Source: an uncultured Bacilli bacterium
GTDB taxonomy: Bacteria > Bacillota_I > Bacilli_A > RF39 > UBA660
Length of the DNA: 64,000 nt
Direction of reading: 5' to 3'
NCBI GenBank assembly: GCA_947630105.1
Contig: CANRGD010000002.1
Coordinates: 258 to 64,257, forward strand
Shown here: one piece after another, positions 23,035-62,963 of the stretch
Position numbering within the stretch: the stretch's first letter is position 1
Layout of the letters: every line of letters starts with the position of its first letter
The notes under the pieces: model-generated
What the model saw: only the letters and a program-made list of their open reading frames with translations
Database searches by the model: none
Told to the model about the DNA's origin: nothing
Translations under genes and position numbers: made by a program

Positions 23035-23053
23035 TGTAATAGGAGGGTAAAAC

Positions 23054-23821: not shown

Positions 23822-23846
23822 GAGAGTAGGGGATTATTAAAATAAA

Positions 23847-23884
23847 AAAAGCATTATATTTAGATAAATAAATATAGTGCTTTT
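23847..23884. terminator. Bidirectional terminator between convergent genes
   Basis: 15-bp stem AAAAGCATTATATTT / AAATATAGTGCTTTT (one G-U pair) with an 8-nt loop. Confidence 0.7.
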
Positions 23885-23906
23885 AATTTGGAATTTATGA
23901 ATATTA

Positions 23907-24443: not shown

Positions 24444-24917
24444 TATTAATCACCTGGATCTATTCCTGTATTTTTATATGATTTTATGTTTATTATTAAC
24501 TTCCTATAATTGATATTATGTTAACTTCTGTATATTTTTCTTTTATTTTTTAATAAAATATTATTATATATAAGTTAAATATTATAGATTAATTAATTTA
24601 ATTATACTTCTCTTCTATTATAGTTATAATAAATATTAATTTAGGAATTATAAATTATTAATTAATTTTAGCTAAATTTTCAATTTTTTTAAACTTATTT
24701 TTAAATTATATATTTATTTAATTAATAACTATATCTTAATATCTTTATATTTAACTATAATATATATAATAATATAAATATATAATATATAGATGTATTT
24801 TAATTAAATTTAGTGATGAACTATCCACTTTTATAAAAATAAATTGCTTAAAATGCATTTTAATTTTTAAGTATATATTCTTAGTATTTTATAAATACTA
24901 ATATTGGAGGGATGTTT

Positions 24918-25124
24918 ATGCAGAATAATTTAATTAAGTGTGATGTTAATAGCTGCAATCACAATAATATAAAAGAGGGGACTTGTCAGTTAGAAAAAAT
25001 ACAAGTATCTTGTACTTGTAATAAAGATAAATGTTCTAATTGTTTGGAAACTATTTGTGAGAGTTTTGAAACTACAGGAGGAGTAATTACTGATAATGAA
25101 TATGAAGTAACTTCAGAAATCTAA
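24918..25124 (+). CDS. DUF1540-like small Cys-rich protein
   Basis: CDVNSCNHNNIKEGTCQLEKIQVS followed by a second Cys-rich half. Start taken at the second ATG, 6 nt after GGAGGG. Confidence 0.65.
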   Translation: MQNNLIKCDVNSCNHNNIKEGTCQLEKIQVSCTCNKDKCSNCLETICESFETTGGVITDNEYEVTSEI

Positions 25125-44027: not shown

Positions 44028-44933
44028 TTAAAAGCCTCGGGAACTTCCACCCCCACCGGATGAGCCTCCACCGCCTGAGAAACCTCCTCCACTAGAAAAG
44101 CCTCCACCAAAGCTACTACCACCGCCATAATAATTACCATTAGAGCTAATATTACTTGAACCAGCAAAAAAGCCAAAAAGTTCTGCTACTAAAGACATGG
44201 AAAAAAACAATTGAAATTGGTAATAGAAAAAGATTACTACAGCTATATTTATAATAATTATAATAGGTATTAAGATTTTACTTTTCTTTTTTTTATATAT
44301 ACTATTTTTTGAATAAGTACCTAATAATAAGCCGATGCAAAAGAATACTCCAACTATAGGTATAAGATATATAATATATGAATTATCAACTGTAGTAGTT
44401 GGAGAGACAGCATTAATTTCAACATCAGGGGCAGTTAAATTATAATAAGCATATATTTTTTTTAAAAAAGCAAAATAGCCATTTTTTATACCTTCATCCC
44501 ACTTATTTTCTTTAAAATATGGAATGATATATTGATCTTGATAGCGTCCTGTGAGACCATCTGTTAAAACTCCTTCTAAGCCATATCCTACTTCTACTCG
44601 AACTTGTCTTTCTTCTAATGCTACTAAAATTAGAAGTCCATTATTTTCTTTTTTATCTCCTATTTTAAAAGATCTAAATAGCTTTGTAGCATATGTTTCA
44701 AGGTCCATTCCCTCTAAATTATTTACTGTTACAATTACTATTTGGGCTTTAGTTTTATTAGCAAGTTCTTTAGAATAATTAAATATAGTATTTTCTAACT
44801 CATCAGATATTATATTAGCATAATCATTAACATAAAACTTTTCTGTTGGTTTTACTAAAGCATTTACACTATTTATATTAAATAAAATGCTTATAAAGAG
44901 AAATATAGAAAATATTTTTAATAATTTTTTCAT
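44028..44933 (-). CDS. TPM domain protein (YgcG-like) with TM segments and a Gly/Ser-rich tail
   Basis: Signal peptide, a TPM core YVNDYANIIS...AQIVIVTVNNLEG...NNGLLILVALEERQVRVEVGYGLEG, and a C-terminal GGGFSSGGGFSGGGGSSGGGGSSRGF. Confidence 0.85.
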   Translation of the reverse strand: MKKLLKIFSIFLFISILFNINSVNALVKPTEKFYVNDYANIISDELENTIFNYSKELANKTKAQIVIVTVNNLEGMDLETYATKLFRSFKIGDKKENNGLLILVALEERQVRVEVGYGLEGVLTDGLTGRYQDQYIIPYFKENKWDEGIKNGYFAFLKKIYAYYNLTAPDVEINAVSPTTTVDNSYIIYLIPIVGVFFCIGLLLGTYSKNSIYKKKKSKILIPIIIIINIAVVIFFYYQFQLFFSMSLVAELFGFFAGSSNISSNGNYYGGGSSFGGGFSSGGGFSGGGGSSGGGGSSRGF

Positions 44934-44984: not shown

Positions 44985-46025
44985 TTAACTATAATTATAG
45001 TTATTTACTACTTCAGTAAAATCTTGTTTGGTTAGTTTTTTAAAGTCTCTTTTAAATCTTTCATATTCACTATTCCAAGATGAATATAGGGAATCTTTTC
45101 TATGATCTGGTAGACTATAATGCTCTTTTAAATATTTAGCAAAATATAAAGTATACTTAGTTGAACCATAAACATTTAAATGTGATGAATTGTATAAATC
45201 TTTATTATAATCAATATTTAATTCTTTAACATTATTAAAATTAATTACCTCAAAGCCTTTTTCTTTAATTATTTTTATGGCCATATTTGTTTTTTTCATA
45301 TAAGTATCGTTAGAAAAAGATCTAGAAGGCAAAACAAATAAAACTTTTATTTGTTCTTTTTTACAATACTCTAATAAATCTATAAGATTTTTTTCATTAA
45401 TTTCTGCTAAATCAATAAGTTCATCTTCAGCAGTAAATGGAGTATATTTTTGAGGCTTTCTTTCAATAGTAGATTCGTTAAATAAATATCCTTTATATAA
45501 GTCTTCTCTATAAAAATTATTAATTGTTATTTCTTTCCATCTATTATGATATAAGGTAAAGGGAAAATAAAAGTTTAAGATATTTTTCTTACTAATTTTA
45601 GCTTGATTTAGGGCCATATTTAAAGCATTTTTTCTAATTTCATCAAAGGGCATTGAATCAATTGTTTTACGAATATCTCCTTCTTTAAAATTTTTAATAT
45701 CATTGGCTGCTAAAGCAAAATCAACTACATAAATTGCATTCTGGTGATGTTTTTTTGCTTCTTGTATTAAATATTTTGTTAAAGAAAAAGGCTGCAAATC
45801 TGTAGATAACAGACCTGTAGTATAACCATATTTATTATAAGCTAAGACAGTGTTAAAATGAGCATAAGCATTACTACTTCCAATATAAACAACATCAAAA
45901 GTATTATCTTTAGCTTTAAAAAAATATTGAATTGAATTTTTATCTAACCATAAAATATTGAAAGTAATATTCCATAATACTAAAAAAATAAGTAAAAAAA
46001 TTATACTTTTAAGTGTTTTTTTCAT
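44985..46025 (-). CDS. Membrane-anchored extracytoplasmic protein in the DltD/AlgX-type (SGNH-like) partner position of the MBOAT gene
   Basis: N-terminal TM segment (start taken at ATG 46025 behind AGGGTGA). VVYIGSSNAYAHF is a candidate Ser block and NSSHLNVYG a candidate His block. It lies 10 nt downstream of the MBOAT gene. Confidence 0.45.
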   Translation of the reverse strand: MKKTLKSIIFLLIFLVLWNITFNILWLDKNSIQYFFKAKDNTFDVVYIGSSNAYAHFNTVLAYNKYGYTTGLLSTDLQPFSLTKYLIQEAKKHHQNAIYVVDFALAANDIKNFKEGDIRKTIDSMPFDEIRKNALNMALNQAKISKKNILNFYFPFTLYHNRWKEITINNFYREDLYKGYLFNESTIERKPQKYTPFTAEDELIDLAEINEKNLIDLLEYCKKEQIKVLFVLPSRSFSNDTYMKKTNMAIKIIKEKGFEVINFNNVKELNIDYNKDLYNSSHLNVYGSTKYTLYFAKYLKEHYSLPDHRKDSLYSSWNSEYERFKRDFKKLTKQDFTEVVNNYNYS

Positions 46026-46035
46026 TTTTATCACC

Positions 46036-47565
46036 CTAAAATTGTCGATATATAAAATCAGTTTTATTATAACTTGGACCGTAACAACCAAATATTATTA
46101 TTGCAAAAATTAATATAAATAATACTCCCCATCTAAAAATAATATTTTGAGAAAACAATTTATCTCTAAGATCACCATTTCGGGATAGAAATTCAACTAT
46201 AAATAATACGATTAAGGAAATAATTAATACTCTAAAATCTAAAAAATCGACTCCAGCAGTATATAAAGAACTATTATCTAATATAATCCAGGGATTCCAT
46301 ATAAACATATTTTTAATAATACTTAAAGCATGGGAGATACTATTTGCGCGAAAGAAAATCATTGAAAAGGAAAATAAGGTAAATGTTCTTATAACTTGAT
46401 ATAATTTATAACTAAAAGTTTTAGTATTAATACCTAATTTATTATTTATTTTTGTAGAAATAGGCTCTAACAAGTCTTCAGCCAAGATAAAAATAAATTG
46501 AAAAATTCCAGAAGCAAGAATATATTTATATTCACCACCATGCCAAATACCTATTATTAACCACATTATAAACATTGATAAATAAAGAGGAATTTTCTTT
46601 CCTTTCTTTTTACCAAATTTTTCTTTACAAATTTTATTTAAATTTTGCATCATATTTGATTTTAATAAAGGATAAAATATATAATCTTTTAACCAAGCCC
46701 CTAAAGTTATATGCCATTTTCTCCAAAATTCTGTAATTGTTTTAGAAAAAAATGGTAAAGAAAAGTTTTCTGGTAATTCTATTCCTAAGATTTCAGAAAT
46801 TCCCATGATAATATCAATTGAACCTGAAAAATTAGTATATAGCTGTAAAGTAAAGAAAAACATAGCAATTATTATAAAAAAGCCATTAAAAGTAGTAACA
46901 TTACTATAAACTGTATTTACATAACTTCCTAGTCTTTCAGATATTACTAATAATTTAAAAATACCCCATAAAATTCTAACTAAACCTCTACACATATTAT
47001 CATAATTGAATTTATGCTTAGCATATAAAGAATATTTCATATCTTTAAATCTTATAAAAGGACCTGATGTTAAAATGGGAAAGTATGACCAAAATAAAGC
47101 TAATTTAAAAATATTTTTTTCTGCTTGGGAAGCATTACGATATATATCAACTAAATAACTAATCATTATTAAGGAGTAATAACTTATTCCTATTAAAGAG
47201 TTATGTTGTTGCATTTTAAATTGATGAGGAATGTTAAATAAGTTAAATATATGGTTAAAGGTTGTTAAAAATAAATTAGTATATTTTAAATAAATTAATA
47301 AAAATAAAAGTATAGATATTCCAATTATTAAAAATATTTTACTTTTTTTAGTATTTTTATATTTATCTAGTAATATACCAAAAAAATATGAAGTTAATAA
47401 AACAATACCAGCTTGAATTAAAGTATTAACTGTAAAATTATTATAAAACAAAAATATTGTACTGGATATTAATAAGACAATCCATTGCAATTTTTTAGGA
47501 ATTAAAAAATAAATAAAAATAGTAATTAAACAAAATATTAAAAAACTTAAAGATATTAAATTCAT
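46036..47565 (-). CDS. MBOAT family O-acyltransferase (DltB/AlgI-like)
   Basis: Polytopic 509-aa protein with FWRKWHITLGAWLKDYIFYPL and IGIWHGG, the two conserved MBOAT His motifs. Confidence 0.85.
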   Translation of the reverse strand: MNLISLSFLIFCLITIFIYFLIPKKLQWIVLLISSTIFLFYNNFTVNTLIQAGIVLLTSYFFGILLDKYKNTKKSKIFLIIGISILLFLLIYLKYTNLFLTTFNHIFNLFNIPHQFKMQQHNSLIGISYYSLIMISYLVDIYRNASQAEKNIFKLALFWSYFPILTSGPFIRFKDMKYSLYAKHKFNYDNMCRGLVRILWGIFKLLVISERLGSYVNTVYSNVTTFNGFFIIIAMFFFTLQLYTNFSGSIDIIMGISEILGIELPENFSLPFFSKTITEFWRKWHITLGAWLKDYIFYPLLKSNMMQNLNKICKEKFGKKKGKKIPLYLSMFIMWLIIGIWHGGEYKYILASGIFQFIFILAEDLLEPISTKINNKLGINTKTFSYKLYQVIRTFTLFSFSMIFFRANSISHALSIIKNMFIWNPWIILDNSSLYTAGVDFLDFRVLIISLIVLFIVEFLSRNGDLRDKLFSQNIIFRWGVLFILIFAIIIFGCYGPSYNKTDFIYRQF

Positions 47566-47948
47566 CTAAAATCTTCCTCTAATAATTCTATTAATCCTAA
47601 ATTCCACATTAAGAAAGCTACTTTTTTATTATTAAACAATATTGCTTCTTTTGGCTCTTTGACTAAAAAAGCACCATCTTTAACTAATTCTTGAATTGTA
47701 TTATCTATATTATTTACACTATAACAGGTATGATATAAGTATTGTTTTTTCTTTAACATATTTTGAACGATGGGTCCACTTATTAATTCTATTTTTATAT
47801 TATCAGCTAATGTTAACATACATAAATAGGCATCTTGATTTTGATCATATACAGTTTCACTTATGTTTTTGATATTTAAATATTTTTTTAATTGTTTTAT
47901 TTCCTCGTTTATATCTTGAGTTGCTATTCCGATATGATGAAATTTCAT
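47562..47948 (-). CDS. VOC (glyoxalase/methylmalonyl-CoA-epimerase fold) family protein
   Basis: The 128-aa protein begins MKFHHIGIATQDINEE, the typical first metal-ligand His strand. A second half-domain ends in ...VAFLMWNLGLIELLEE. Confidence 0.7.
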   Translation of the reverse strand: MKFHHIGIATQDINEEIKQLKKYLNIKNISETVYDQNQDAYLCMLTLADNIKIELISGPIVQNMLKKKQYLYHTCYSVNNIDNTIQELVKDGAFLVKEPKEAILFNNKKVAFLMWNLGLIELLEEDFR

Positions 47949-47955
47949 ACTTCAC

Positions 47956-48201
47956 CTACTTATTACTTCTAGAAGTAATAATATCTACCATTTCACCAAC
48001 ATTTTTCATAGATGTTACTTCATTCATATTAAATTTCATTCCAAATTCTTGTTCTATCGCAACTATTAAATTAATATGCTCTAAACTATCCCAATCTTCT
48101 ATATCAGCTGAAGTTGTATCTGCGTTTACAACTATTGTTTCATCATCAAATATATCTCTAAAAACATTATTTAATCTTTCATAAATTTCTTCTTTTTTCA
48201 T
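47956..48201 (-). CDS. Acyl/peptidyl carrier protein (DltC-like)
   Basis: 81-aa protein with EDWDSLEHINLIVAIEQEFG. The DSL serine is the phosphopantetheine attachment site. Confidence 0.9.
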   Translation of the reverse strand: MKKEEIYERLNNVFRDIFDDETIVVNADTTSADIEDWDSLEHINLIVAIEQEFGMKFNMNEVTSMKNVGEMVDIITSRSNK

Positions 48202-48204
48202 AAT

Positions 48205-49980
48205 TTAAATCACCTCTATAACATTATTTTTATTTTCATAATTAGCTAGCTCTAATTTATAAGTTTTATTGCCTTTAGAATCAGTTGATACTAATTCAAA
48301 ACCTAAATCATCATAAAAGTCTTTAACCATTTTATTCTTTTGAGTAGGATAATAGTAGCCATAAATTGTTGTGATTTTTTTGGCAGTTGCTCTTTTTACA
48401 AGTTCATCCATCATGGCTAATTCCATATTTCTTTTTAAAACTCGACAACTCATTATCCATAAGTCAAGATGTAATTCGGTCTTATTTTTAATATTACCAA
48501 TCACAACAGTTATTACACCATTATCTCCAAATATATCTTCTAATTTTCCATATATTTTAATATAATCATCACTATTAGCAACTTCTTCTATGTCAGCTAG
48601 AGAATATCTTTTAGTAGTTAAATTAAACTGATTACTCTTATTACTAAGTTGGGATATTCTTTCTAAATATATTGGTTTAAATGTAGAAATTTCCGCTACC
48701 ATTTTTAATGATTTTAAATAATCATCATAATTATCAAATGTGGCCATCATTTGACTTCTTTTAGCATTATCTTTATATAATTCAGTCTTTTTTATGTCTT
48801 CTTCACTAAAATTGGTTACTTCAAAATAAGCATTTTTATCAATTATTCTTATATAATTTTCTGGAATATCTATTTCAGGAGTAGCGATTCCTTCTATATA
48901 TGTTTTAACTATTTTTCTTTCTGCGGGATTGTCATCTACAAAGACAAAGCTATCAGCACCTAAATTTAATTCTTCGGCTATATCTTTAGTATTAATATTT
49001 TTAGGATTCCAGTTAGCTTTTATAATTATAAAATCTTCAGGTTTTAAATTACCTGCTGGATGATTTAGTCCGGCTATAGCATTTTCATAATCATTTTTGG
49101 AGTTAACATTTAAAATAATTCCTAATTTCTTATGTTCTTTTAAATATTGCTGGAATTCCAAGTAAACTTGACCACTAGGAACTTCAGGTCCAATACTTAA
49201 ATTATCAACTCCATCATCGCCAACTATTCCACCCCATAAGGTGTTATCTAAATCAAGTACAAAGGCTTTTTTATTTTTTCCATATATTGATTTAATAATA
49301 TTGGCGATATTAAATGCTAAATATGGTATTGCTGGTACTTCCATAGCATATTTATACATATGCCAATAAAATTGATTAGCCCATTTATCAAGTCCATAGC
49401 AAGATGAAACATAATTAATATCATTTATAAAAAAATTTTTAGTTGTATTAGCATAATCATAAAATTTTTGATTAAGTCTAGTAATAAAATTAATTCTACC
49501 ATGAATATCACTAGCATCTTTATTTCCAAGTAAGCGGTAATAAGGATATTCAAAATTATTTTGAATAATAGTAGCATTAAAGTTTTTTAATAACGAGTTC
49601 CATACTTTTTCAAATTTAGTATATTCTGCTTGCAACATTTCTTCAACTGTTTTATTATCATCTAAAACAGAGGGATAATTAGTAATATTTCTATTAGTAG
49701 TATGAATATAAATTATATCTGGATTAAAGTTATTTAATTTTTCATTTCCAAATACAGCATCTTCATAAAATTTATTATATTCTGACTCATAAAAATTAGG
49801 TTTTATTCCATAATTTAGTAAAAATATTTCTAACATATTTTTAATTTCACTAGTAGTGGAGCCTCCTAATATAGCAATATTTTTAGATAGTAAATTTTCT
49901 TTTTGTAATAGTTGCTTTTTTATTTTCTTCTTATTTTTAATTAAAAATTCTGAATCAAAGGGATATTCTAGTTCATTCAT
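48205..49980 (-). CDS. FkbH-like HAD-IIIC family protein (putative carrier-protein loading enzyme) with a ~250-aa N-terminal extension
   Basis: AFVLDLDNTLWGGIVGDDG is the HAD DxDxT nucleophile motif in its FkbH/IIIC form. It also has VDDNPAER and a C-terminal DLWIMSCRVLKRNME (FkbH-type Cys region). Start taken at ATG 49980 (MNELEY) behind GGTGA. Confidence 0.7.
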   Translation of the reverse strand: MNELEYPFDSEFLIKNKKKIKKQLLQKENLLSKNIAILGGSTTSEIKNMLEIFLLNYGIKPNFYESEYNKFYEDAVFGNEKLNNFNPDIIYIHTTNRNITNYPSVLDDNKTVEEMLQAEYTKFEKVWNSLLKNFNATIIQNNFEYPYYRLLGNKDASDIHGRINFITRLNQKFYDYANTTKNFFINDINYVSSCYGLDKWANQFYWHMYKYAMEVPAIPYLAFNIANIIKSIYGKNKKAFVLDLDNTLWGGIVGDDGVDNLSIGPEVPSGQVYLEFQQYLKEHKKLGIILNVNSKNDYENAIAGLNHPAGNLKPEDFIIIKANWNPKNINTKDIAEELNLGADSFVFVDDNPAERKIVKTYIEGIATPEIDIPENYIRIIDKNAYFEVTNFSEEDIKKTELYKDNAKRSQMMATFDNYDDYLKSLKMVAEISTFKPIYLERISQLSNKSNQFNLTTKRYSLADIEEVANSDDYIKIYGKLEDIFGDNGVITVVIGNIKNKTELHLDLWIMSCRVLKRNMELAMMDELVKRATAKKITTIYGYYYPTQKNKMVKDFYDDLGFELVSTDSKGNKTYKLELANYENKNNVIEVI

Positions 49981-50060
49981 ACTTTTCACCATATTTATAA
50001 TAACATATCCGTATTTTATTATCAATAAAAACATAGTATAATTCAATTAGGAGGGATATT

Positions 50061-50372
50061 ATGAAAATAGGTTGTGATATTGTAAAAAATGAAAGATTAC
50101 AAAATAAAAACAGGCGATTTATAGACTTAATTCTTACTAAAAAAGAACAAGAGGAATATAAAAAAAAGGGTCTATTTTATTTATGCGGAAGATTTGCTTG
50201 TAAAGAAGCAATAATGAAAGCTTTAGATAATACTAAAAAATTAACTTATTTAGATTTGGAAATATTAAATAAAGAAGATGGAAGTCCTTATTGTGTTAAT
50301 TATGATAATATTAAAATAACTATTTCTCATGAAAAAGAATATACAATGGCTGTTGCATTGGTGGAAGAATAA
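50061..50372 (+). CDS. acpS: Holo-[acyl-carrier-protein] synthase (AcpS-type PPTase), short form
   Basis: IGCDIV...LTKKEQEEY...CGRFACKEAIMKAL...LEILNKEDGSPY...ISHEKEYTMAVALVE aligns with the AcpS pattern (IGxDI, GRFAAKEA, G.P, SISH). AGGAGGG RBS. Confidence 0.8.
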   Translation: MKIGCDIVKNERLQNKNRRFIDLILTKKEQEEYKKKGLFYLCGRFACKEAIMKALDNTKKLTYLDLEILNKEDGSPYCVNYDNIKITISHEKEYTMAVALVEE

Positions 50373-50413: not shown

Positions 50414-50980
50414 TTAATCAAATACTACATTAGGAATATCCTTTTTACTATCATCAGCTTCAAAATAATCAACATCATCAAAGTCAAATATTTCGGCTAA
50501 TATATTTGTAGGGATAGATTTTACTTTTTTATTATATTTACTGGCAATATCATTATAATCTTTTTTAGCAACTGCTATTCTATTTTCAGTACCAGCTAAT
50601 TCATCTTGTAAATTTATAAAATTTTCATTAGCTTTTAAATCGGGATAATTTTCAACAATTACCATTAAGGCATCAATTGCTTTACTTAATTCAGTATTTG
50701 CTTTACTCTTATCTTCTACATCATCTGCTCTTAATAGTCTTTCTCTTGCTGTTGTAACTCGATCAATTACAGTTTCTTCATGTTTTACATAACCTTTAAC
50801 AGTACTTACTAAGTTTGGTATTAAATCAGCTCGTCTTTCTAGTTGAACATCTATATTAGAAAATTGATTAACAACATCTTCTCTTAATCCAACTAAATTA
50901 TTATATCCAGTTACTCCCCATAATATTATTAATAAAATAATTGCTATAATAGAAATTATAATTATATAACTTTTTTTCAT
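50414..50980 (-). CDS. LemA family protein (second copy)
   Basis: TM segment followed by GYNNLVGLREDVVNQFSNIDVQLERRADLIPN...ENYPDLKANENF...AVAKKDYN. Confidence 0.9.
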   Translation of the reverse strand: MKKSYIIIISIIAIILLIILWGVTGYNNLVGLREDVVNQFSNIDVQLERRADLIPNLVSTVKGYVKHEETVIDRVTTARERLLRADDVEDKSKANTELSKAIDALMVIVENYPDLKANENFINLQDELAGTENRIAVAKKDYNDIASKYNKKVKSIPTNILAEIFDFDDVDYFEADDSKKDIPNVVFD

Positions 50981-52314: not shown

Positions 52315-52348
52315 ATAAAAAGACATTATCTTTATTTCGATAAGGTCT
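52315..52348 (-). terminator. Rho-independent terminator ending the glycopolymer operon
   Basis: Minus-strand stem AGACCTTATC / GATAATGTCT (one mismatch) followed by TTTTAT. It begins within the LCP stop codon. Confidence 0.65.
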
Positions 52349-54093
52349 TAATTTTTAACAACTTTTTTAATTTGCTTACTTGCAGTGGCAACTGTTTGTA
52401 AATTTGGTTCCATAACCCAATCAACATAATTTGTCATATGAACATAATCTTTTTTGTCTGTTCCATCTACAGCTTGTTCTATGATTTTCCATTTTCCTTT
52501 ATTATCTAAAGTAGTCTTAGCTAAATTATTAATTACTTCTCTTGGAATAGATGTTTCATATAAATTACTAAAAGAATCAAGAATATTGGTATAATTTGTA
52601 ATAGTATTAACATTATTTAATTTTTTAATAATTGCTAATAGGATTTGCCGACAGTTTTCTTGGCGAGCTCTATCTCTACCAGGTAAAGCTATTCTTTCTC
52701 TAGCTATAGTTAAGGCTTCAATACCATTAACATCTTGACAACCTTTTTTTACATATAATTTTTTACCTACTGTATCATTGTAAGTATTTAAAACTAAGGC
52801 ATGAGTCGTTTTAAATTCATAATCACTACAGAATGTTATTCCACCAATAGAATCAACTACTTCTACTAAACTAGTAGTATTTACTTTTATATAATAATCT
52901 ATTTTTATATCAAATAGATTTTCTAGAGCATGAATAGAAGTTTCTATTCCATAAGGTCCCATGTAACTTAAAGTATCTTTTTTACCATTATATTCTTTTA
53001 ATTCTAGATAATAATCACGAGGAATACTAGTCATTATAACTTTACTAGTACGCATATTAATACTAACAATCATATTAAAGTCCATATTAGTATTTGTAAA
53101 ATCAGTTCCTCCAATATATATATTAAATTCTTCTTTGGCTTCATTATTTTCTAGCTTTGTTTTAGATTTTACATCAATAGATAAAAGTACTTTAAAATCT
53201 TCTTCTTTTAAATTTTTATCTAATTCAAAAACTAAACTATAAGAAGATTTTTCAACATACATAAAATCTATTTTATTATTTTTTACATCAGTAAACATGG
53301 ATGTGACATCATCATAGGCTTGCAGATTAACTTCATATAATTTTTCTAATTCTTGATTAGCTTTTTTGATATTAGAAGTGTTTTTATAATATGCAACATC
53401 TCCTTCTATATCATATTTGGTATTTGAAGATGTAGCATTAGTTATAATATAATAAGTATTTGTATTTACTAAATATTCACTATTAAATGATTTATTTAAG
53501 AAATTATTCGTATTATGAAGATAATAACTTCCTGCTGTATTTATAATTATAGAAATTAATATAATAAATAGTGCTAAAACTTTTAAAAACTTTTTCTTAG
53601 AATTAAGTAAAAGAAAAGCAATAAATTGAATAAAGAGTAAAATAATTGATAAAATAATTAAATACATTGTGGGAATAATATTTAATTTTATAACTAAAAT
53701 TAAAAAGACTATTAAACAAATAAAACTAATTAGGGGAATAATATTTATTTTTTTTAGACGTTTTTTTACAACTACTTTTTTAGGTTTACTAGTAGTTTCA
53801 TATTCATCGTCGATTTTTATTTCTTCATCTTTATTATCTTCTTCATTTTCTACTAAGTCAGCTTGTTCTTTTAATGGTTTTCTATGACTTTTTTCTTCTT
53901 GTTTTAGTTTTTGCAAAATTTTATCTATATTTTCATCTTCTTCATATTCATCAGAAACTAAATCTGAATAATTAATTTCTTTTACTTTTTCATCAGTTTC
54001 TTCATCTAATATTTCAATTTCTTGTTCATATATTTTTTTGTTTTTAGTTTCACGACTTTCTTTTTCATGATTTTCATCTTTATACTTATTCAT
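52348..54093 (-). CDS. LCP (LytR-CpsA-Psr) family glycopolymer ligase with a long acidic N-terminal extension
   Basis: An LCP core (MTSIPRDYYL...TLSYMGPYG...VDSIGGITF...ALTIARER...RDRARQENCRQIL) follows about 110 acidic/Lys-rich residues and 2-3 TM segments. Confidence 0.85.
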   Translation of the reverse strand: MNKYKDENHEKESRETKNKKIYEQEIEILDEETDEKVKEINYSDLVSDEYEEDENIDKILQKLKQEEKSHRKPLKEQADLVENEEDNKDEEIKIDDEYETTSKPKKVVVKKRLKKINIIPLISFICLIVFLILVIKLNIIPTMYLIILSIILLFIQFIAFLLLNSKKKFLKVLALFIILISIIINTAGSYYLHNTNNFLNKSFNSEYLVNTNTYYIITNATSSNTKYDIEGDVAYYKNTSNIKKANQELEKLYEVNLQAYDDVTSMFTDVKNNKIDFMYVEKSSYSLVFELDKNLKEEDFKVLLSIDVKSKTKLENNEAKEEFNIYIGGTDFTNTNMDFNMIVSINMRTSKVIMTSIPRDYYLELKEYNGKKDTLSYMGPYGIETSIHALENLFDIKIDYYIKVNTTSLVEVVDSIGGITFCSDYEFKTTHALVLNTYNDTVGKKLYVKKGCQDVNGIEALTIARERIALPGRDRARQENCRQILLAIIKKLNNVNTITNYTNILDSFSNLYETSIPREVINNLAKTTLDNKGKWKIIEQAVDGTDKKDYVHMTNYVDWVMEPNLQTVATASKQIKKVVKN

Positions 54094-54136
54094 AGGAACC
54101 TCTTTTCTATTCTTATAATGCCTTTTAAGATTATAT

Positions 54137-54604
54137 TTATAACATCTTTAATAATTTAGTATTAATTATTTCTCCTACAGCTGATTCATTACATTTATTA
54201 GGGGAAATATAATCAACAATATTTTTTATTTTTTCTATTGCGTCATTAGGACAAGCTTTAAAGCCACAATTAAGCATAGCTTCATAATCATTTTCATCGT
54301 CACCTATATAAGCGACATTGTCATAGGTTAAATTTTTGGCTGATAAAAGTTCATCTATTTTTTCTTTTTTATTAATTATATTTTGATAAACTTCACAAAT
54401 ATTCATTTCTTTAGCTCTATTTTCTACTATTTTTGATGTTCTTTTAGTTATTATTACAGTTGTAACTCCTAAAGAGGGCAATTTTTGTAGTGGTATAGTA
54501 TCATGACAATTAAAAGCTTTCATAGCTTCTCCATTAGGTCCCATATAAATTTTTCCATCTGTTAAAGTTCCATCAACATCTAAAATTAACATTTTTATTT
54601 TCAT
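54137..54604 (-). CDS. KdsC-like HAD-IIIA sugar-acid phosphate phosphatase
   Basis: LILDVDGTLTDGKIYMGPNGEAMKAFNCHD and YIGDDENDYEAM. The size (155 aa) and motifs match the KdsC / N-acylneuraminate-9-P phosphatase family. Confidence 0.8.
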   Translation of the reverse strand: MKIKMLILDVDGTLTDGKIYMGPNGEAMKAFNCHDTIPLQKLPSLGVTTVIITKRTSKIVENRAKEMNICEVYQNIINKKEKIDELLSAKNLTYDNVAYIGDDENDYEAMLNCGFKACPNDAIEKIKNIVDYISPNKCNESAVGEIINTKLLKML

Positions 54605-54620
54605 ACTTCACATCCTAATT

Positions 54621-55067
54621 TTACTTTTTTATATGTTTTTTTTCATACTCAACTATAGCATCAACCTTGGGGCCTGATCTTTTATTATAAACATAGCGAC
54701 AAGTAAAATAAGCATCTACTAATTCAAGGGCTAATTTATTGCCAATTGTTTGACTTCCTAAAGTAATGATATTACAGTTATTACTTAAACATGCTCGTTT
54801 GGCAGAGTAAACATCTGTTACATTAGCAGCATAAGCTCCATTTACTTTGTTAGCTGCAATCATCATTCCTATTCCAGTACCACAAATTAAAATACCTCTT
54901 TCGTATTCTTCATTAGCAACAGCTTCGGCTACTTTTATAGCTACATTAGCGTAAATAGGATCATCACTACCAAAATCTGTAACATCATGTCCTATATCTT
55001 TTAAAAATAAGGCAACTTCATTTTTTAATTTTTTGGCATTAGGATCACATCCAATTGCTACTTTCAT
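54621..55067 (-). CDS. RpiB/LacA/LacB family sugar-phosphate isomerase
   Basis: MKVAIGCDPNAKKLK...GILICGTGIGMMIAANK...NNCNIITLG in a 148-aa protein. Confidence 0.85.
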   Translation of the reverse strand: MKVAIGCDPNAKKLKNEVALFLKDIGHDVTDFGSDDPIYANVAIKVAEAVANEEYERGILICGTGIGMMIAANKVNGAYAANVTDVYSAKRACLSNNCNIITLGSQTIGNKLALELVDAYFTCRYVYNKRSGPKVDAIVEYEKKHIKK

Positions 55068-55095
55068 ATCTTAATATATCCTTTCAATTTTTATT

Positions 55096-56709
55096 TTATT
55101 TATTTTTTAAACAGCTACTAAATCTTGACTTAGTAATTAGAGTTATTGGTTCTTTGTGTTTCCTTGTTTCCATATAATCTCTTAACATCTTAGCTGTATC
55201 TTCATTAATGATTTTAAAGTCTTCTTTTACTTTTAATAATTCTAAATCTTTTGTGGCATAATTTTCTTTTCCTATATCATAACCATCAAATCCTGCAATA
55301 TTAATTGACTTAACATTTAATAAATCTAGTAATCTCATTAAAAGAATTGTGGAATTATCTAAATGTTCCCATCCACATTTAACTAATCTAGAAAATGATA
55401 CAATATATTCATTATCACTTGTTGCTTTGTTTTTGATATTAGATGTTATTATTTTATTTTTATTATATGATTCTAGTTTTTCTAATGAACTATATCTTCT
55501 TGTATTACTTATATAAACATAATCTATATTAATATTTTCTGGAATAAAACTAATTGATATAATTGTAGGCCTATATTGATTTATAAAATTTTGAATTTTT
55601 TTGTGTTCTTCTTTAATAGAATATCCTGGAGAAAGTATTAATATATCTTTTCCTTGAAGTTCTTGTTGTAATCTTTTGATAGTTTTTGCGTCATCTATAT
55701 CAGATGACATATATTTTAAATATGTTTCTTCTAAGAGATTATGAATAGCTTTTTTTCTAGCAATAGAACCAACTTGATTTAATATATATCTCATATCTTT
55801 TGAATGAATACTACTTTTATTTGCTAAATATTGAATATTATCTACATGACAACCATATGCTCCAGCAATAAAATATTCAGTATTATATCCCCAATTACAT
55901 TTTGTACGAATGTTGTCCATGTAATCATCAATAATATCAAGTAGGGAATCCATGTCATAATTATATTCCCATTTTGTATTTAAATACTGGGCAATTAATT
56001 CTGTTGGAGTATTACCTGCTCCTCTTCCCATTCCTGAAATAGTTCCATCTATTATTACATCTCTTTTACCAAAAGTCATACGAGCAAATTCTTGAGATAA
56101 GGAATTGGATAATTGCATATTATTGTGTGAATGAAATCCTATTCTACATGTTGATACTAAATTATGATTAATTATTTCAAATATTCTATGTAAATCTTCT
56201 TGATACATTGACCCAAAAGTATCAACAATAGAAAAACAGTAAGGCTCTATTTCATTTACTAATTTTATTAAATCTAATAATTCTTCATCCGTATAACCTA
56301 AAATATCTACTGGTTGAACAAATAATTTATAGCCTTTTTCTTTTATTTTTTTACAATTTTCTAATGCTTTAAACCTTTCATCTTTTTTAAAGCATTCACG
56401 TATTCCATCAATAGATTTAGGATCACAATTATCTAAATTATCAAGTGTATATCTACTATAATCAGATAAAACTGTAAAAAGGCAACCATTTTTATCTTTT
56501 GGAATATACTTTTTAACTTCTTTCGAATTTTTATATACAGTTTTTCCTGTCCCTGTTTCAGTATCTTGAAAAAAGCCTACTTCTATTATGTCAATTTTAG
56601 CTTTAACCAAACCGGAAATAATTCCTAATATGTTATTTTCGCCAAAATTCTTATTTAATAAATAAGCTCCATCTCTTAATGTACAATCTAATAATTTTAC
56701 ATGTTTCAT
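55096..56709 (-). CDS. DRE-TIM (HMGL-like) pyruvate-aldolase domain fused to a ~200-aa C-terminal domain of unknown function
   Basis: LLDCTLRDGAY (DxxxRDG), IGFHSHNN (HxH metal site) and ISGMGRGAGNTPTE, as in 4-hydroxy-2-oxovalerate aldolase / isopropylmalate synthase catalytic domains. The C-terminal part ends in ...SINIAGFDGY.... Confidence 0.7.
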   Translation of the reverse strand: MKHVKLLDCTLRDGAYLLNKNFGENNILGIISGLVKAKIDIIEVGFFQDTETGTGKTVYKNSKEVKKYIPKDKNGCLFTVLSDYSRYTLDNLDNCDPKSIDGIRECFKKDERFKALENCKKIKEKGYKLFVQPVDILGYTDEELLDLIKLVNEIEPYCFSIVDTFGSMYQEDLHRIFEIINHNLVSTCRIGFHSHNNMQLSNSLSQEFARMTFGKRDVIIDGTISGMGRGAGNTPTELIAQYLNTKWEYNYDMDSLLDIIDDYMDNIRTKCNWGYNTEYFIAGAYGCHVDNIQYLANKSSIHSKDMRYILNQVGSIARKKAIHNLLEETYLKYMSSDIDDAKTIKRLQQELQGKDILILSPGYSIKEEHKKIQNFINQYRPTIISISFIPENINIDYVYISNTRRYSSLEKLESYNKNKIITSNIKNKATSDNEYIVSFSRLVKCGWEHLDNSTILLMRLLDLLNVKSINIAGFDGYDIGKENYATKDLELLKVKEDFKIINEDTAKMLRDYMETRKHKEPITLITKSRFSSCLKNK

Positions 56710-56714
56710 TTTTA

Positions 56715-57374
56715 TTACTTCCTAACTATAATATTTGAATAAATTGCATTAGCAATCTCAAAATCTTCTGGATAATCTATATCAACACATTCAATTCCTT
56801 TTACTTCGGTTATATGAATTTTGCCTCCAATTCTTCTATGCTTAGTTTCATATAATTTTTTTGAAAATGCATATATTGCTGTAGTTTCACTATAAAGAGG
56901 GTCTAAATCTTGAGTTCTGGGAACATTGGTAGGATCAAAATTTAAAGCATTACCATCATCTTTCCATAATAGTTTTTGAATTTTTTCACCTGTAAATGAG
57001 GAATCGAATTTACCACTTTTTACTGCCTTGCAACATTCACTAATATGTGTAACTGTTACAAATGGTGATGTACAATTGCACATAACATACACATCTGCAT
57101 CTTTTATTTTCATAAATTCTTGGATTAAATTATTAGCTGTTGCTTTATCGGTATCTAAAAATGAAGGCCTTTTCAAAAAATTAACTTTGGGAATTAAATA
57201 ATCTTTTATTGTTTCATCACTACAAAAAACGTATATTTCATCTATCTCTTCACATTTAACTAATGTTTTTAAAAAAGCTGTTATTAAGGGAGTCCCATCA
57301 CTAAATTTTTTTGTATTTTTACCTGGCGTTCTTTGATTATTTAATTTAATTGGAACAAATGCTATAGTTTTCAA
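56715..57374 (-). CDS. Acylneuraminate/ulosonate cytidylyltransferase family protein (CMP-sugar-acid synthetase)
   Basis: N-terminus IAFVPIKLNNQRTPGKN (the P-loop-like CTP-binding motif of the CTP_transf_3 family). 219 aa, TTG start behind AGGAGTGA. Confidence 0.75.
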   Translation of the reverse strand: MKTIAFVPIKLNNQRTPGKNTKKFSDGTPLITAFLKTLVKCEEIDEIYVFCSDETIKDYLIPKVNFLKRPSFLDTDKATANNLIQEFMKIKDADVYVMCNCTSPFVTVTHISECCKAVKSGKFDSSFTGEKIQKLLWKDDGNALNFDPTNVPRTQDLDPLYSETTAIYAFSKKLYETKHRRIGGKIHITEVKGIECVDIDYPEDFEIANAIYSNIIVRK

Positions 57375-57395
57375 TGTATCACTCCTTATATTAAA

Positions 57396-57425
57396 ATTAT
57401 ATCATCTATTTTTATAAAGAAACAA
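57396..57425 (-). promoter_or_regulatory. Internal promoter (TTGTTT-18-TATAAT) in the 124-bp gap within the locus
   Basis: Minus-strand TTGTTT (57425-57420) and TATAAT (57401-57396), upstream of the cytidylyltransferase RBS. Confidence 0.4.
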
Positions 57426-57498
57426 GTATTTTACTTATATTATAAAAGATAAGGTATTAATAAATTAATTTTTATAATTTAAAGTTATTTATAAATTT

Positions 57499-58926: not shown

Positions 58927-58933
58927 TTTATCA

Positions 58934-60289: not shown

Positions 60290-60360
60290 TTTATACTCCT
60301 CTTTCTATTTTAAAATTTATTAAATTTTAATAGATAGGAGAATCTAGAAAAATAAGTGTA

Positions 60361-61715: not shown

Positions 61716-61730
61716 AACTTTAAACTCCTT

Positions 61731-62876: not shown

Positions 62877-62963
62877 TTAGTCACCAACTTTCCATTTATT
62901 AATTTTATCATAATTAAAAGTTTATTGATAAAAATAACAGTTTTGCATATTTTTTAATTTTCA

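What the first reader, a model, noticed from the sequence alone, without database searches (positions are those of the whole stretch)
44985..50372. Dlt-like carrier-protein/MBOAT surface acylation system loaded by an FkbH-type enzyme instead of an adenylating ligase
Five co-directional genes are packed with spacings from -4 to +10 nt, plus a divergent PPTase 80 bp away.
1. A 591-aa protein carrying the FkbH/HAD-IIIC signature (VLDLDNTLWGGIVGDDG and MSCRVLKR) behind a ~250-aa N-terminal extension.
2. An 81-aa carrier protein with the DSL phosphopantetheinylation site.
3. A 128-aa VOC-fold protein starting MKFHHIGIAT, like methylmalonyl-CoA epimerases and glyoxalase I, which are both thioester-handling enzymes.
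4. A 509-aa MBOAT with the WRKWH and WHGG motifs of DltB/AlgI.
5. A membrane-anchored extracytoplasmic protein in the DltD/AlgX position.
6. A short dedicated AcpS.

The logic is that of D-alanylation: load a carrier protein in the cytoplasm, have the MBOAT relay the acyl group across the membrane, and have an outer SGNH-type protein place it on a polymer. DltA is absent. Its place is taken by an FkbH-type enzyme, the family that in polyketide pathways turns 1,3-bisphosphoglycerate into glyceryl-S-ACP. This predicts esterification of a wall polymer with a glycolysis-derived hydroxyacyl group (glyceryl, lactyl or similar), possibly epimerised or rearranged on the carrier by the VOC enzyme. I know of no experimentally characterised system with this composition, though I cannot check the literature here.
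Basis: partly seen in the sequence, partly recalled or inferred. Interest (0 to 1): 0.85.

Follow-up and report, generated by a model that had tools for sequence, protein, structure and literature searches.

The report
Carrier-protein-fed wall polymer acylation cassette
A gut Firmicute carries a compact operon that looks like the teichoic-acid D-alanylation machinery, except that its carrier protein is loaded by an FkbH-type enzyme, which predicts a so far undescribed glycerate- or lactate-type ester decoration of the cell envelope.

Summary
Five co-directional genes lie at 44985-49980 on the minus strand, spaced -4 to +10 nt: an FkbH-family loader, an ACP, a VOC/glyoxalase-fold protein, an MBOAT and a membrane-anchored SGNH protein whose model best matches DltD. 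A divergent AcpS starts 80 bp away.

New points:
- The MBOAT ends in FIYRQF, the FxYxxF acyl-shuttle motif of DltX and PatA.
- In 80 FkbH-seeded loci from different species, 51 of 68 decidable ones have a co-directional MBOAT within 4-5 kb. This holds across Bacillota, Odoribacter and Methylomonas. No recurrent large-ORF neighbour family was found, but KS/A/C domains were not screened.
- Genes between ACP and MBOAT vary: VOC, MaoC dehydratase plus SDR, or aldo-keto reductase plus split transketolase.
- FkbH-ACP loci without an MBOAT carry a soluble 330-aa protein instead.

Caveat: most MBOAT/DltD-like pairs found by seeding with the MBOAT (25-40% identity) have no FkbH or ACP nearby, so the coupling is limited to some lineages. 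No chemical step is shown.

A 2025 mechanistic paper says MBOAT/SGNH pathways other than Dlt lack a carrier protein, and the held literature describes no such system.

Verdict: a new variant of a known kind. Confidence in the ACP-to-MBOAT relay is 0.55. The glyceryl identity of the acyl group is less certain.

The parts
48205..49980 (-). FkbH-family loader, 591 aa: FkbH_N domain, HAD-IIIC phosphatase domain and a C-terminal Cys-bearing transferase domain. Motif I D243/D245/T247 lies at nt 49240-49254; Cys512 at nt 48445-48447.
   Evidence: TIGR01686 252 bits against a cut-off of 146.65, and PF21211. PDB 3slr (B. fragilis BF1531) matches residues 20-393 at E 7e-46. Invariant columns in 48 diverse homologues are listed.
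47956..48201 (-). Acyl carrier protein, 81 aa, net charge -10. The phosphopantetheine site is Ser39 (DSL) at nt 48085-48087.
   Evidence: PF00550 25.3 bits. It resembles AcpP and scores only faintly against DltC. The best solved relative is 2lml, 'putative ACP', E 5e-18. An ACP lies within 300 nt of FkbH in 59 of 76 related loci.
47562..47948 (-). VOC/glyoxalase-fold metalloenzyme, 128 aa, with candidate metal ligands H5, E54, H73 and E121. It is an optional on-carrier tailoring enzyme, possibly a 2-hydroxyacyl-thioester epimerase or isomerase.
   Evidence: PF13669 63.7 bits. It falls below the cut-offs for methylmalonyl-CoA epimerase and glyoxalase I. The nearest solved structures are 2qh0 and 3hdp, glyoxalase I entries, at E 2e-15. 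It occupies the same ACP-VOC-MBOAT position in L008, L025, L077 and L111.
46036..47565 (-). MBOAT, 509 aa, with His285 (WRKWH) and His342 (WHGG; nt 46540-46542). Two extra C-terminal helices are followed by the terminal FIYRQF acyl-shuttle motif at nt 46039-46056, with Tyr506 at 46048-46050.
   Evidence: PF03062. TIGR04091 DltB scores 138 bits, below the 375 cut-off. DltB is the only sequence hit among solved structures. The AlphaFold model has pLDDT 89.4 and its best fold hits are DltB 6bug/8jem with TMt 0.75-0.77. FxYxxF ends 53 of 59 MBOATs in the related loci. The motif's function is described in PMC12148441.
44985..46025 (-). Extracytoplasmic SGNH/DltD-like transferase, 346 aa, anchored by one N-terminal helix. 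Ser51 sits in a GSSN motif (nt 45873-45875) and His282 in SSHLN (nt 45180-45182).
   Evidence: No Pfam hit. Invariant residues in 52 homologues are D44, S51, G67, D123, H282 and N284. The model has pLDDT 93.5. Best fold hits are DltD 3bma, 6pfx, 6o93 and 7dxm, followed by TesA and PatB. It is the usual downstream partner of this MBOAT clade.
50061..50372 (+). Short AcpS-type phosphopantetheinyl transferase, 103 aa, divergent from the operon.
   Evidence: PF01648 45.6 bits and TIGR00556 56.1 bits against a cut-off of 45.35. An AcpS lies immediately next to FkbH in the close relatives L007 and L008, and ~5.8 kb downstream in L011.
49997..50025 (-). Promoter-like site (TTGATA-17-TATTAT with an upstream TG) in the 80-bp divergent intergenic region ahead of the FkbH gene.
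   Evidence: This is a consensus scan only. Promoter-like sites in the region are no more frequent than in shuffled sequence, so the evidence is weak.

Best explanation
This is a carrier-protein-dependent MBOAT-SGNH O-acylation cassette for an extracytoplasmic cell-envelope glycopolymer. Proposed steps:

1. AcpS converts the 81-aa ACP to its holo form at Ser39.
2. The FkbH-type enzyme takes a glycolytic acyl phosphate, most likely 1,3-bisphosphoglycerate. Its HAD domain (D243/D245) removes the phosphate, it holds the acyl group on Cys512, and it passes it to the ACP thiol as glyceryl-S-ACP.
3. The VOC enzyme edits the 2-hydroxyacyl thioester on the carrier, most plausibly by C2 epimerisation through an enediolate.
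4. The MBOAT takes the acyl group from the phosphopantetheine arm at the cytoplasmic face. His342 catalyses transfer to Tyr506 of the MBOAT's own C-terminal FIYRQF motif on the outer face.
5. The membrane-anchored SGNH protein accepts the group on Ser51 and esterifies a hydroxyl of a wall polysaccharide or teichoic acid. The acceptor may be the polymer made by the LCP/Wzx/Wzy locus 2 kb away.

Shown here: gene content, domain families, catalytic motifs, predicted folds and conserved synteny. Inferred: every chemical step, the identity of the acyl group and the acceptor.
For: **Domains and motifs.**

**Folds.** The 346-aa model best matches DltD. The MBOAT model best matches DltB.

**Operon structure.** Spacing is -4 to +10 nt, and the operon holds no adenylating enzyme and no other acyltransferase.

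**Acyl-shuttle motif.** The MBOAT ends in FIYRQF. PMC12148441 shows that the Tyr of this FxYxxF motif carries the acyl group from MBOAT to SGNH partner in PatA/PatB and in DltX/DltB/DltD.

**FkbH-seeded synteny (species-representative genomes).**
- An ACP lies within 300 nt of FkbH in 59 of 76 loci.
- A co-directional MBOAT lies within 4-5 kb in 51 of 68 decidable loci. These include Eisenbergiella tayi DSM 26961, Odoribacter splanchnicus and a Methylomonas MAG.
- Minimal four-gene cassettes FkbH-ACP-MBOAT-SGNH occur in L026, L033, L048, L089 and L090, and leave the MBOAT as the only candidate to unload the carrier.
- The 5 MBOAT-less loci L032, L059, L064, L071 and L081 instead carry a soluble 330-aa protein plus a polysaccharide deacetylase.
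- Tailoring genes sit between ACP and MBOAT: VOC, MaoC+SDR, or AKR plus split transketolase.

**Known biochemistry and precedent.**
- FkbH homologues load a glyceryl unit from D-1,3-bisphosphoglycerate onto discrete ACPs (PMC3625739, PMC13122637).
- C. jejuni has an fkbH-domain gene, cj1302, in the flagellin glycosylation locus of a strain whose glycan carries di-O-methylglyceric acid (PMC7099621 and PMC3068675).
Against: - No biochemical step is shown.
- Seeding with the MBOAT returned 80 metagenomic loci at 25-40% identity. MBOAT/DltD-like pairs are common there, but FkbH or ACP is adjacent in only about 11. This MBOAT/SGNH type therefore usually works without a carrier, presumably from acyl-CoA.
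- In architecture the MBOAT is PatA/AlgI-like, and those enzymes use acetyl-CoA (PMC12148441).
- A search for an ACP-docking signature found a 'GKKxGK' segment between the two His motifs in many linked MBOATs, but it is not universal.
- In 22 loci the order is MBOAT-(x)-FkbH-ACP; in the roughly dozen where the partner was identified it is DHHW/AlgX-type, with an AlgI-like short-loop MBOAT. That arrangement could simply mean two modifications of one polymer.
- The substrate of this FkbH clade is untested.
Confidence: 0.55

Rival explanations
1. Two independent functions share one glycan locus. FkbH, ACP and VOC make a hydroxyacyl-ACP that is used in the cytoplasm by an acyltransferase encoded elsewhere, for example for N- or O-acylation of a nucleotide sugar or a lipid-linked repeat unit, as presumed for C. 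jejuni. The MBOAT and its SGNH partner are an ordinary O-acetyltransferase pair that uses acetyl-CoA.
For: - Most MBOAT/DltD-like pairs at 25-40% identity have no FkbH or ACP within 8 kb.
- The MBOAT has the PatA-type fused shuttle motif, and PatA uses acetyl-CoA.
- FkbH-ACP also occurs without an MBOAT, next to a soluble 330-aa protein or next to housekeeping genes.
- Glyceric acid on the C. jejuni flagellar sugar is made in a locus that encodes an fkbH-domain gene.
Against: - In the window and in the minimal four-gene cassettes, no other enzyme is present to unload the ACP.
- ACP and MBOAT are separated by 2-30 nt in about 20 species from three phyla, and tailoring genes are inserted exactly between them.
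- MBOAT-less FkbH-ACP loci carry a different candidate transferase, which suggests alternative unloaders.
- MBOATs linked to ACP tend to cluster together: nearest-neighbour label agreement is 0.88 against 0.63 when labels are shuffled. This figure has ascertainment bias.
Confidence: 0.27
2. The ACP-MBOAT-SGNH relay is real but the acyl group is not glyceryl. One option is D-lactoyl-S-ACP, made by the glyoxalase-I-like VOC from the hemithioacetal of methylglyoxal with the phosphopantetheine thiol. Another is a different small acyl phosphate accepted by this FkbH clade.
For: - The VOC's nearest solved relatives are deposited as glyoxalase I / lactoylglutathione lyase (E 2e-15), and the four metal-ligand positions align.
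- Other cassettes carry MaoC+SDR, which would give lactyl from glyceryl, or a split transketolase plus AKR. The acyl group therefore varies between cassettes.
- No member of this standalone glycan-associated FkbH clade has been assayed.
Against: - Every FkbH homologue whose activity is reported in the papers read here uses 1,3-bisphosphoglycerate to give glyceryl-ACP or glyceryl-PCP.
- The VOC is present in only about 8 of 43 full loci, so it cannot be the general loader.
- FkbH would be redundant if the VOC loaded the carrier.
Confidence: 0.13
3. The cluster is part of a secondary-metabolite pathway, such as a tetronate or a methoxymalonyl extender unit, and has nothing to do with the envelope.
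For: FkbH and a discrete ACP are hallmark genes of such pathways.
Against: - The window has no KS, AT, FabH-like, condensation or adenylation gene.
- No large-ORF family recurs next to FkbH in the 76 related loci, though the 18 ORFs over 900 aa were not annotated.
- Neighbours are glycan genes, and the partners are membrane or extracytoplasmic proteins.
Confidence: 0.03

Closest known systems
[quoted passage not shown]
   Same: - A small carrier protein is encoded next to an MBOAT and an N-anchored SGNH protein.
- The MBOAT's closest solved relatives, by sequence and by fold, are DltB.
- The SGNH protein's closest folds are DltD.
- An FxYxxF tyrosine shuttle motif is present (PMC12148441).
   Different: - There is no DltA-type adenylating ligase; an FkbH-type HAD/transferase takes its place.
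- There is no DltX microprotein. The shuttle motif is fused to the MBOAT on two extra helices.
- The MBOAT scores far below the DltB equivalog cut-off (138 against 375 bits).
- The ACP resembles AcpP rather than DltC.
- The predicted acyl group is a hydroxy acid, not an amino acid, so it would add no positive charge.
Acetyl-CoA-dependent MBOAT-SGNH pairs (PatA/PatB, AlgI/AlgJ/AlgX, and PatA1/PatB1 of Bacillus)
   Same: - The MBOAT has a fused C-terminal FxYxxF motif and a separate extracytoplasmic SGNH transferase.
- Many relatives of the window's MBOAT/SGNH pair occur with no carrier protein.
   Different: - PMC12148441 states that these pathways lack a carrier protein because they use acyl-CoA.
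- Here an ACP and its loader are translationally coupled to the MBOAT.
- The SGNH partner is DltD-like rather than AlgX/DHHW- or PatB-like.
FkbH / OzmB / Tmn16 / ChlD1 / AbyA2 glyceryl-ACP loaders of polyketide and non-ribosomal peptide pathways
   Same: - The TIGR01686 domain scores above its cut-off.
- HAD motifs, the conserved Cys and the FkbH_N domain are present.
- A discrete ACP lies immediately downstream.
   Different: - The context is glycan and envelope genes, with no KS or FabH-like condensing enzyme.
- The predicted acceptor is a membrane acyltransferase.
- No member of this clade has been assayed.
C. jejuni flagellin glycosylation island (fkbH-domain cj1302 next to cj1301, annotated as an epimerase) and the di-O-methylglyceric acid form of pseudaminic acid
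   Same: An FkbH-domain gene sits in a glycan modification locus of a strain whose glycan carries glyceric acid. This is the only precedent found for FkbH feeding a glycan.
   Different: - The modification is made on a nucleotide sugar in the cytoplasm, and no MBOAT/SGNH export step is involved.
- The link between cj1302 and the glycerate group is correlative in the papers read here.
BryA-type loading modules (FkbH with DH and KR domains giving D-lactate). Recalled from memory, not checked here.
   Same: Sister cassettes L004, L005, L006, L012, L039 and L080 place a MaoC dehydratase and an SDR between ACP and MBOAT. L050 has a MaoC-SDR fusion. This is the same set of activities that would turn glyceryl-ACP into lactyl-ACP.
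   Different: The enzymes are discrete rather than domains of a synthase. This variant is not present in the window, which has a VOC instead.

Membership tests
FkbH family (TIGR01686 / HAD-IIIC) | Profile match above the curated cut-off over the whole domain | tested here: met
   252 bits against a cut-off of 146.65, covering profile positions 3-321 of 323. TIGR01681 scores 60.8 against 35.75.
FkbH family (TIGR01686 / HAD-IIIC) | HAD motifs I-IV (DxDxT, S/T, K, DD) and the conserved Cys in the C-terminal domain | tested here: met
   D243/D245/T247, S294, K327, D349/D350 and Cys512 in MSCR are present. They are invariant or at least 90% conserved in 48 homologues at 31-53% identity. That this Cys is the acyl-carrying residue is taken from memory of the OzmB work.
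FkbH family (TIGR01686 / HAD-IIIC) | Loads a glyceryl unit from 1,3-bisphosphoglycerate onto an ACP | not testable with these tools
   This needs an in vitro assay with mass spectrometry of the ACP.
Bacterial MBOAT-SGNH acyltransferases | MBOAT domain with the catalytic His, and an MBOAT fold | tested here: met
   PF03062 scores 40.2 against a gathering score of 27. His285 and His342 are invariant. DltB is the top fold hit at TMt 0.75-0.77.
Bacterial MBOAT-SGNH acyltransferases | FxYxxF acyl-shuttle hexapeptide at the extracytoplasmic C-terminus | tested here: met
   The protein ends in FIYRQF. F504, I505 and Y506 are invariant within the clade. The motif is defined in PMC12148441.
Bacterial MBOAT-SGNH acyltransferases | Adjacent membrane-anchored SGNH transferase with a catalytic Ser and His | tested here: met
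   The 346-aa protein has an N-terminal helix and invariant S51 and H282. Its fold matches DltD, TesA and PatB. The Asp of the triad was not assigned.
DltB (TIGR04091 equivalog) | Score above the equivalog cut-off, and no fused shuttle motif (DltX supplies it) | tested here: not met
   The score is 138.5 bits against a cut-off of 375. The protein is about 90 residues longer than DltB and carries the fused FIYRQF motif. It works like DltB but is not a DltB orthologue.
Dlt system | DltA adenylating ligase and the DltX microprotein | tested here: not met
   No AMP-binding domain is found in the ten genes scanned between 44028 and 54093. No separate DltX was seen; the motif is fused to the MBOAT.
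DltD family | Sequence-family membership | tested here: not met
   No Pfam or NCBIfam hit at E<=0.01. Similarity is at fold level only: Foldseek probability 1.0, E about 1e-3, TM 0.36-0.40.
Acyl carrier protein (PF00550) | PP-binding domain with the DSL serine | tested here: met
   25.3 bits against 20.8, and Ser39 lies in DSL.
Methylmalonyl-CoA epimerase / glyoxalase I (VOC) | Equivalog-level match | tested here: not met
   TIGR03081 scores 37 against 115, and TIGR00068 scores 21 against 120. Only the superfamily domain PF13669 is met. The four metal-ligand positions are present.
Polyketide / non-ribosomal peptide gene cluster | Condensing or adenylating megasynthase genes next to FkbH-ACP | tested here: not met
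   None in the window. In the 76 related loci no large-ORF family recurs next to FkbH, but 18 ORFs over 900 aa were not annotated.

The most novel reading that the evidence does not exclude
Gut and rumen anaerobes, and some Bacteroidota and Proteobacteria, have a widespread modular family of MBOAT-SGNH systems fed by a carrier protein. These systems would esterify wall polysaccharides or teichoic acids with short hydroxyacyl groups taken directly from glycolysis. The group would be edited on the carrier by interchangeable tailoring enzymes: none gives glyceryl, VOC gives the epimer, MaoC+SDR gives lactyl, and transketolase+AKR gives another C2/C3 unit. This would be the second carrier-protein-dependent envelope acylation pathway after D-alanylation, and a new chemical class of envelope decoration.
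Probability: 0.45. Interest if true: 0.85.

Novelty: new variant of a known kind. Interest (0 to 1): 0.75.

Why it matters
**Why it matters if true**
- D-alanylation is currently the only envelope acylation known to use a carrier protein. The 2025 mechanistic paper on MBOAT-SGNH systems says the others lack one.
- A second carrier-fed system with a different loader and a neutral, hydrophilic hydroxyacyl group would show that the MBOAT/Tyr-shuttle/SGNH relay is a general export route for acyl groups that have no CoA pool.
- It would predict unknown glyceryl or lactyl esters on the surface polymers of abundant gut Firmicutes. These could affect phage receptors, lysozyme and antimicrobial-peptide resistance, and immune recognition.
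- It would extend FkbH chemistry from natural products to cell-envelope biology.

**Testability**
The cassette is small, and it occurs in Eisenbergiella tayi DSM 26961 and in Odoribacter splanchnicus (found here in an isolate-labelled assembly).

Tried and rejected
**Look-ups that returned nothing**
- An exact-sequence look-up of the window's FkbH protein (P0001) found no encoding contig.
The source is known only as a relative (90% identity) of 'uncultured Bacilli' rabbit-gut MAGs.

**Literature**
- Searches for FkbH+MBOAT, FkbH+polysaccharide+ACP, HAD-IIIC+ACP, FkbH+capsule, FkbH+teichoic and MBOAT+SGNH+carrier protein found no description of this system.
- The last search was badly framed and mostly wasted.
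- Schultz et al. 2023 is not held in the library.

**ACP-docking signature on the MBOAT**
- Contrasting linked and unlinked clades pointed to a polybasic 'GKKxGK' segment between the two His motifs.
- Most of that contrast comes from a ~23-residue insertion shared by linked and unlinked long-loop MBOATs.
- One linked clade and the DHHW-paired clade lack the segment.
- I treat this as inconclusive.

**Phylogenetic clustering of ACP-linked MBOATs**
- The clustering is significant against shuffles.
- It is biased because one locus set was seeded with FkbH.

**Other points**
- Secondary-metabolite reading: rejected. The window has no condensing or adenylating gene, and no large-ORF family recurs next to FkbH.
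- The window holds no paralogues of the cluster genes.
- Terminator and promoter scans are at chance level.
- A multimer model of ACP with the MBOAT could not be run with the tools available.

Full report
**1. Observation**

Between 44985 and 50372 the window carries five minus-strand genes and one divergent plus-strand gene, as described. The table lists them in order of transcription.

| Gene | Coordinates | Size | Spacing to the previous gene |
|---|---|---|---|
| FkbH-like | 48205-49980 | 591 aa | - |
| ACP | 47956-48201 | 81 aa | 3-nt gap |
| VOC | 47562-47948 | 128 aa | 7-nt gap |
| MBOAT | 46036-47565 | 509 aa | 4-nt overlap |
| 346-aa protein | 44985-46025 | 346 aa | 10-nt gap |
| AcpS (plus strand) | 50061-50372 | 103 aa | starts 80 bp from the FkbH start |

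Profile searches confirm the families:
- FkbH-like: TIGR01686 FkbH 252 bits (cut-off 146.65), HAD-IIIC and PF21211 FkbH_N.
- ACP: PF00550.
- VOC: PF13669.
- MBOAT: PF03062.
- AcpS: PF01648.
- The 346-aa protein has no family hit.

The operon holds no adenylating enzyme, condensing enzyme or other acyltransferase.

The window has about 25% G+C. The closest relatives, at 90% identity, are 'uncultured Bacilli' MAGs from rabbit gut. One MBOAT relative is named Candidatus Onthocola, placed in Bacilli incertae sedis.

**2. The individual proteins**

*FkbH-like protein*
- It keeps HAD motif I (D243-L-D245-N-T247), S294, K327 and D349-D350.
- It also keeps Cys512 in an MSCR motif.
- All of these are invariant or at least 90% conserved in 48 homologues at 31-53% identity.
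- The first ~230 residues are not an unusual extension. They are the Pfam FkbH_N domain, also seen in the only solved relative, B. fragilis BF1531 (3slr, E 7e-46).

*MBOAT*
- It has both conserved histidines, His285 in WRKWH and His342 in WHGG.
- Its only solved sequence relatives are DltB proteins.
- Its AlphaFold model (pLDDT 89.4) is closest to DltB (TMt 0.75-0.77).
- It scores far below the DltB equivalog cut-off (138 against 375 bits).
- It is about 90 residues longer than DltB. Two extra C-terminal helices are followed by the terminal hexapeptide FIYRQF.
- FxYxxF is the acyl-shuttle motif. [quoted passage not shown]

*346-aa protein*
- Its model has pLDDT 93.5 and one N-terminal helix.
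- Ser51 (in GSSN) and His282 are invariant.
- Its best structural matches are four DltD structures, followed by TesA-type SGNH hydrolases and PatB.

*VOC*
- Its nearest solved relatives are two entries deposited as glyoxalase I (E 2e-15).
- The four metal-ligand positions align.
- It falls below the equivalog cut-offs for both methylmalonyl-CoA epimerase and glyoxalase I.

**3. Context in other genomes, seeded with FkbH**

FkbH-like proteins of this type are abundant: 13,589 cluster representatives at E<=1e-3. I scanned one genome per species with a diverse FkbH alignment and obtained 80 loci. They come from Lachnospiraceae, Oscillospiraceae, Ruminococcaceae, Christensenellaceae, Bacilli, Odoribacter splanchnicus, Eisenbergiella tayi DSM 26961, Endomicrobia, Synergistaceae, Methylomonas and others.

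*Linkage*
- An ACP lies within 300 nt of FkbH in 59 of 76 loci.
- Of 68 decidable loci:
  - 29 read FkbH-ACP-(x)-MBOAT;
  - 22 read MBOAT-(x)-FkbH-ACP;
  - 17 have no MBOAT within range. Four of those (five counting a truncated fragment) have a window-clade MBOAT 5-8 kb upstream.
- 53 of 59 full-length MBOATs in these loci end in FxYxxF.
- No family of large ORFs recurs next to FkbH; 18 ORFs over 900 aa lie in these loci and were not annotated, so PKS/NRPS modules were not excluded domain by domain.
- Neighbours are GT2, GtrA, LCP, polysaccharide deacetylase, DUF6044/DUF6056 membrane proteins and GDSL proteins.

*MBOAT partners*
- DltD-like partners, as in the window.
- Other N-anchored 'GSS...D..H' proteins with faint DUF1574 similarity.
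- DHHW/AlgX-type partners.

*Genes between ACP and MBOAT*
- Nothing: L026, L033, L048.
- VOC: the window, L008, L025, L077, L111.
- MaoC dehydratase plus FabG-like SDR: L004, L006, L012, L039. In L005 and L080 the same pair lies elsewhere in the cassette. L050 has a MaoC-SDR fusion.
- Aldo-keto reductase plus a split transketolase, next to the cassette but not always between ACP and MBOAT: L010, L011, L013, L020, L037.

*Loci without an MBOAT*
- Five loci (L032, L059, L064, L071, L081) instead carry a soluble 330-aa protein with no Pfam hit, which looks GNAT-like by eye, plus a polysaccharide deacetylase.
- I read these as alternative unloaders of the same carrier.

**4. Reciprocal test, seeded with the MBOAT**

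Scanning metagenomes with an alignment of ACP-linked MBOATs returned 80 loci at 25-40% identity.
- Most show the MBOAT followed by a DltD-like protein.
- Only about 11 have FkbH and/or ACP adjacent, mostly among the best-scoring loci.
- The MBOAT/DltD-like pair is therefore a general two-component acyltransferase that normally works without a carrier. Coupling to FkbH-ACP is a feature of particular sub-lineages.
- Linked MBOATs do cluster together: nearest-neighbour agreement is 0.88 against 0.63 when labels are shuffled (maximum 0.79). One locus set was seeded with FkbH, so this is biased.
- A possible ACP-docking signature, 'GKKxGK' between the two His motifs, is frequent in linked MBOATs but not universal. 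I count it as inconclusive.

**5. Mechanism**

The best-supported reading is a relay in five steps.
1. AcpS makes holo-ACP.
2. The FkbH enzyme loads a glycolysis-derived acyl group. The published activity of the family is glyceryl from D-1,3-bisphosphoglycerate (PMC3625739, PMC13122637).
3. The VOC edits the 2-hydroxyacyl thioester.
4. The MBOAT moves the group to Tyr506 of its own FIYRQF tail.
5. The SGNH protein places it on an extracytoplasmic polymer.

The acceptor may be the product of the nearby glycan locus (LCP at 52348-54093, then Wzx/Wzy-type genes up to 64000).

The arguments for the ACP-to-MBOAT handover are:
- the genes are translationally coupled;
- ACP-MBOAT adjacency recurs across phyla;
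- the minimal cassettes hold no other unloading enzyme;
- MBOAT-less loci carry a different candidate transferase;
- DltC-DltB is a precedent.

All chemical steps are inferred. I put the relay at 0.55.

The main rival (0.27) is that FkbH-ACP feeds a cytoplasmic acylation while the MBOAT/SGNH pair O-acetylates from acetyl-CoA. A second rival accepts the relay but with a different acyl group, for example lactoyl made by the glyoxalase-like VOC (0.13). A secondary-metabolite role is very unlikely (0.03).

**6. Comparison with what is known**

- The system works like Dlt but is not a member of that system. There is no DltA and no DltX, the MBOAT fails the DltB equivalog test, and the ACP is not DltC-like.
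- In MBOAT architecture it belongs with PatA/AlgI-type MBOAT-SGNH pairs. [quoted passage not shown]
- The loader is a true member of the FkbH family by profile score and motifs.
- The only glycan-related precedent I found is C. jejuni. An fkbH-domain gene, cj1302, lies next to an annotated epimerase in the flagellin glycosylation locus of a strain whose pseudaminic acid carries di-O-methylglyceric acid (PMC7099621 and PMC3068675). No MBOAT export step is involved there.
- Ten full-text searches found no description of an FkbH-ACP-MBOAT system. The library lacks most subscription journals, so prior description cannot be excluded.

**7. Verdict**

- It is a new variant of a known kind: MBOAT-SGNH envelope acylation with a carrier protein and an FkbH loader.
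- Interest is 0.75.
- It is directly testable, because the cassette occurs in Eisenbergiella tayi DSM 26961 and in Odoribacter splanchnicus.

Noticed in passing
window 44028-44933 and 50414-50980: A LemA gene and a TPM-domain gene, both on the minus strand, flank the AcpS/FkbH cassette. From memory, LemA and TPM genes are often direct neighbours. The window's other LemA gene (13467-14015) sits directly beside its partner, a DUF2207 gene. The 5.4-kb cassette may therefore have been inserted into a LemA-TPM pair. In relatives the cassette sits in different contexts.
   Followed up: partly
window 52348-64000: A surface-glycan locus lies 2 kb from the cassette. It encodes an LCP transferase, a KdsC-like HAD phosphatase, RpiB/LacAB, a 537-aa HMGL-like aldolase, a CMP-sugar-type cytidylyltransferase, a Wzx flippase, several proteins with no family hit and a Wzy-like protein. 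It is a candidate acceptor polymer and may make an unusual CMP-activated acidic sugar.
   Followed up: partly
L004:12027-19989; protein lists: The DltD-like SGNH protein is multiplied in close relatives. L004 has five paralogues around one MBOAT, and several contigs carry two or three copies. This suggests several acceptors or positions served by a single MBOAT.
   Followed up: no
L004, L005, L006, L012, L039, L080, L050; L010, L011, L013, L020, L037: Sister cassettes replace the VOC with a MaoC dehydratase plus a FabG-like SDR (fused in L050), or add an aldo-keto reductase plus a split transketolase. This implies different hydroxyacyl groups, such as lactyl or a C2 unit, on the same carrier.
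   Followed up: partly
L015, L018, L019, L022, L025 (for example L015:13613-14221): A ThrH-like phosphoserine phosphatase / homoserine phosphotransferase (301 bits, above its cut-off) directly follows the MBOAT. In these loci the MBOAT ends in FIYARI or FIYASI instead of FxYxxF. I have no explanation for this.
   Followed up: no
L032, L059, L064, L071, L081: These FkbH-ACP loci have no MBOAT. They carry a polysaccharide deacetylase and a soluble 330-aa protein with no family hit that looks GNAT-like by eye. This may be a cytoplasmic or N-acylating version of the pathway.
   Followed up: partly
L001:12036-14333: In a relative with an 82%-identical FkbH, the MBOAT and one DltD-like gene are split into fragments (373 + 118 aa, and 67 + 120 aa). 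An ISL3 transposase and an IS605/TnpB element lie in the locus. The cassette appears to be decaying there.
   Followed up: no
proteins P0363 and P0340: There are fusion forms of the loader. One is FkbH_N-FkbH-ACP-thioesterase (1027 aa). The other is a 2554-aa protein that combines an FkbH core with a radical SAM/SPASM domain.
   Followed up: no
window about 23000-25000: GC skew changes sign here, and gene orientation switches from the plus to the minus strand. Cumulative skew peaks at about 24 kb. This is the pattern of a replication terminus, or of a large inversion boundary.
   Followed up: no
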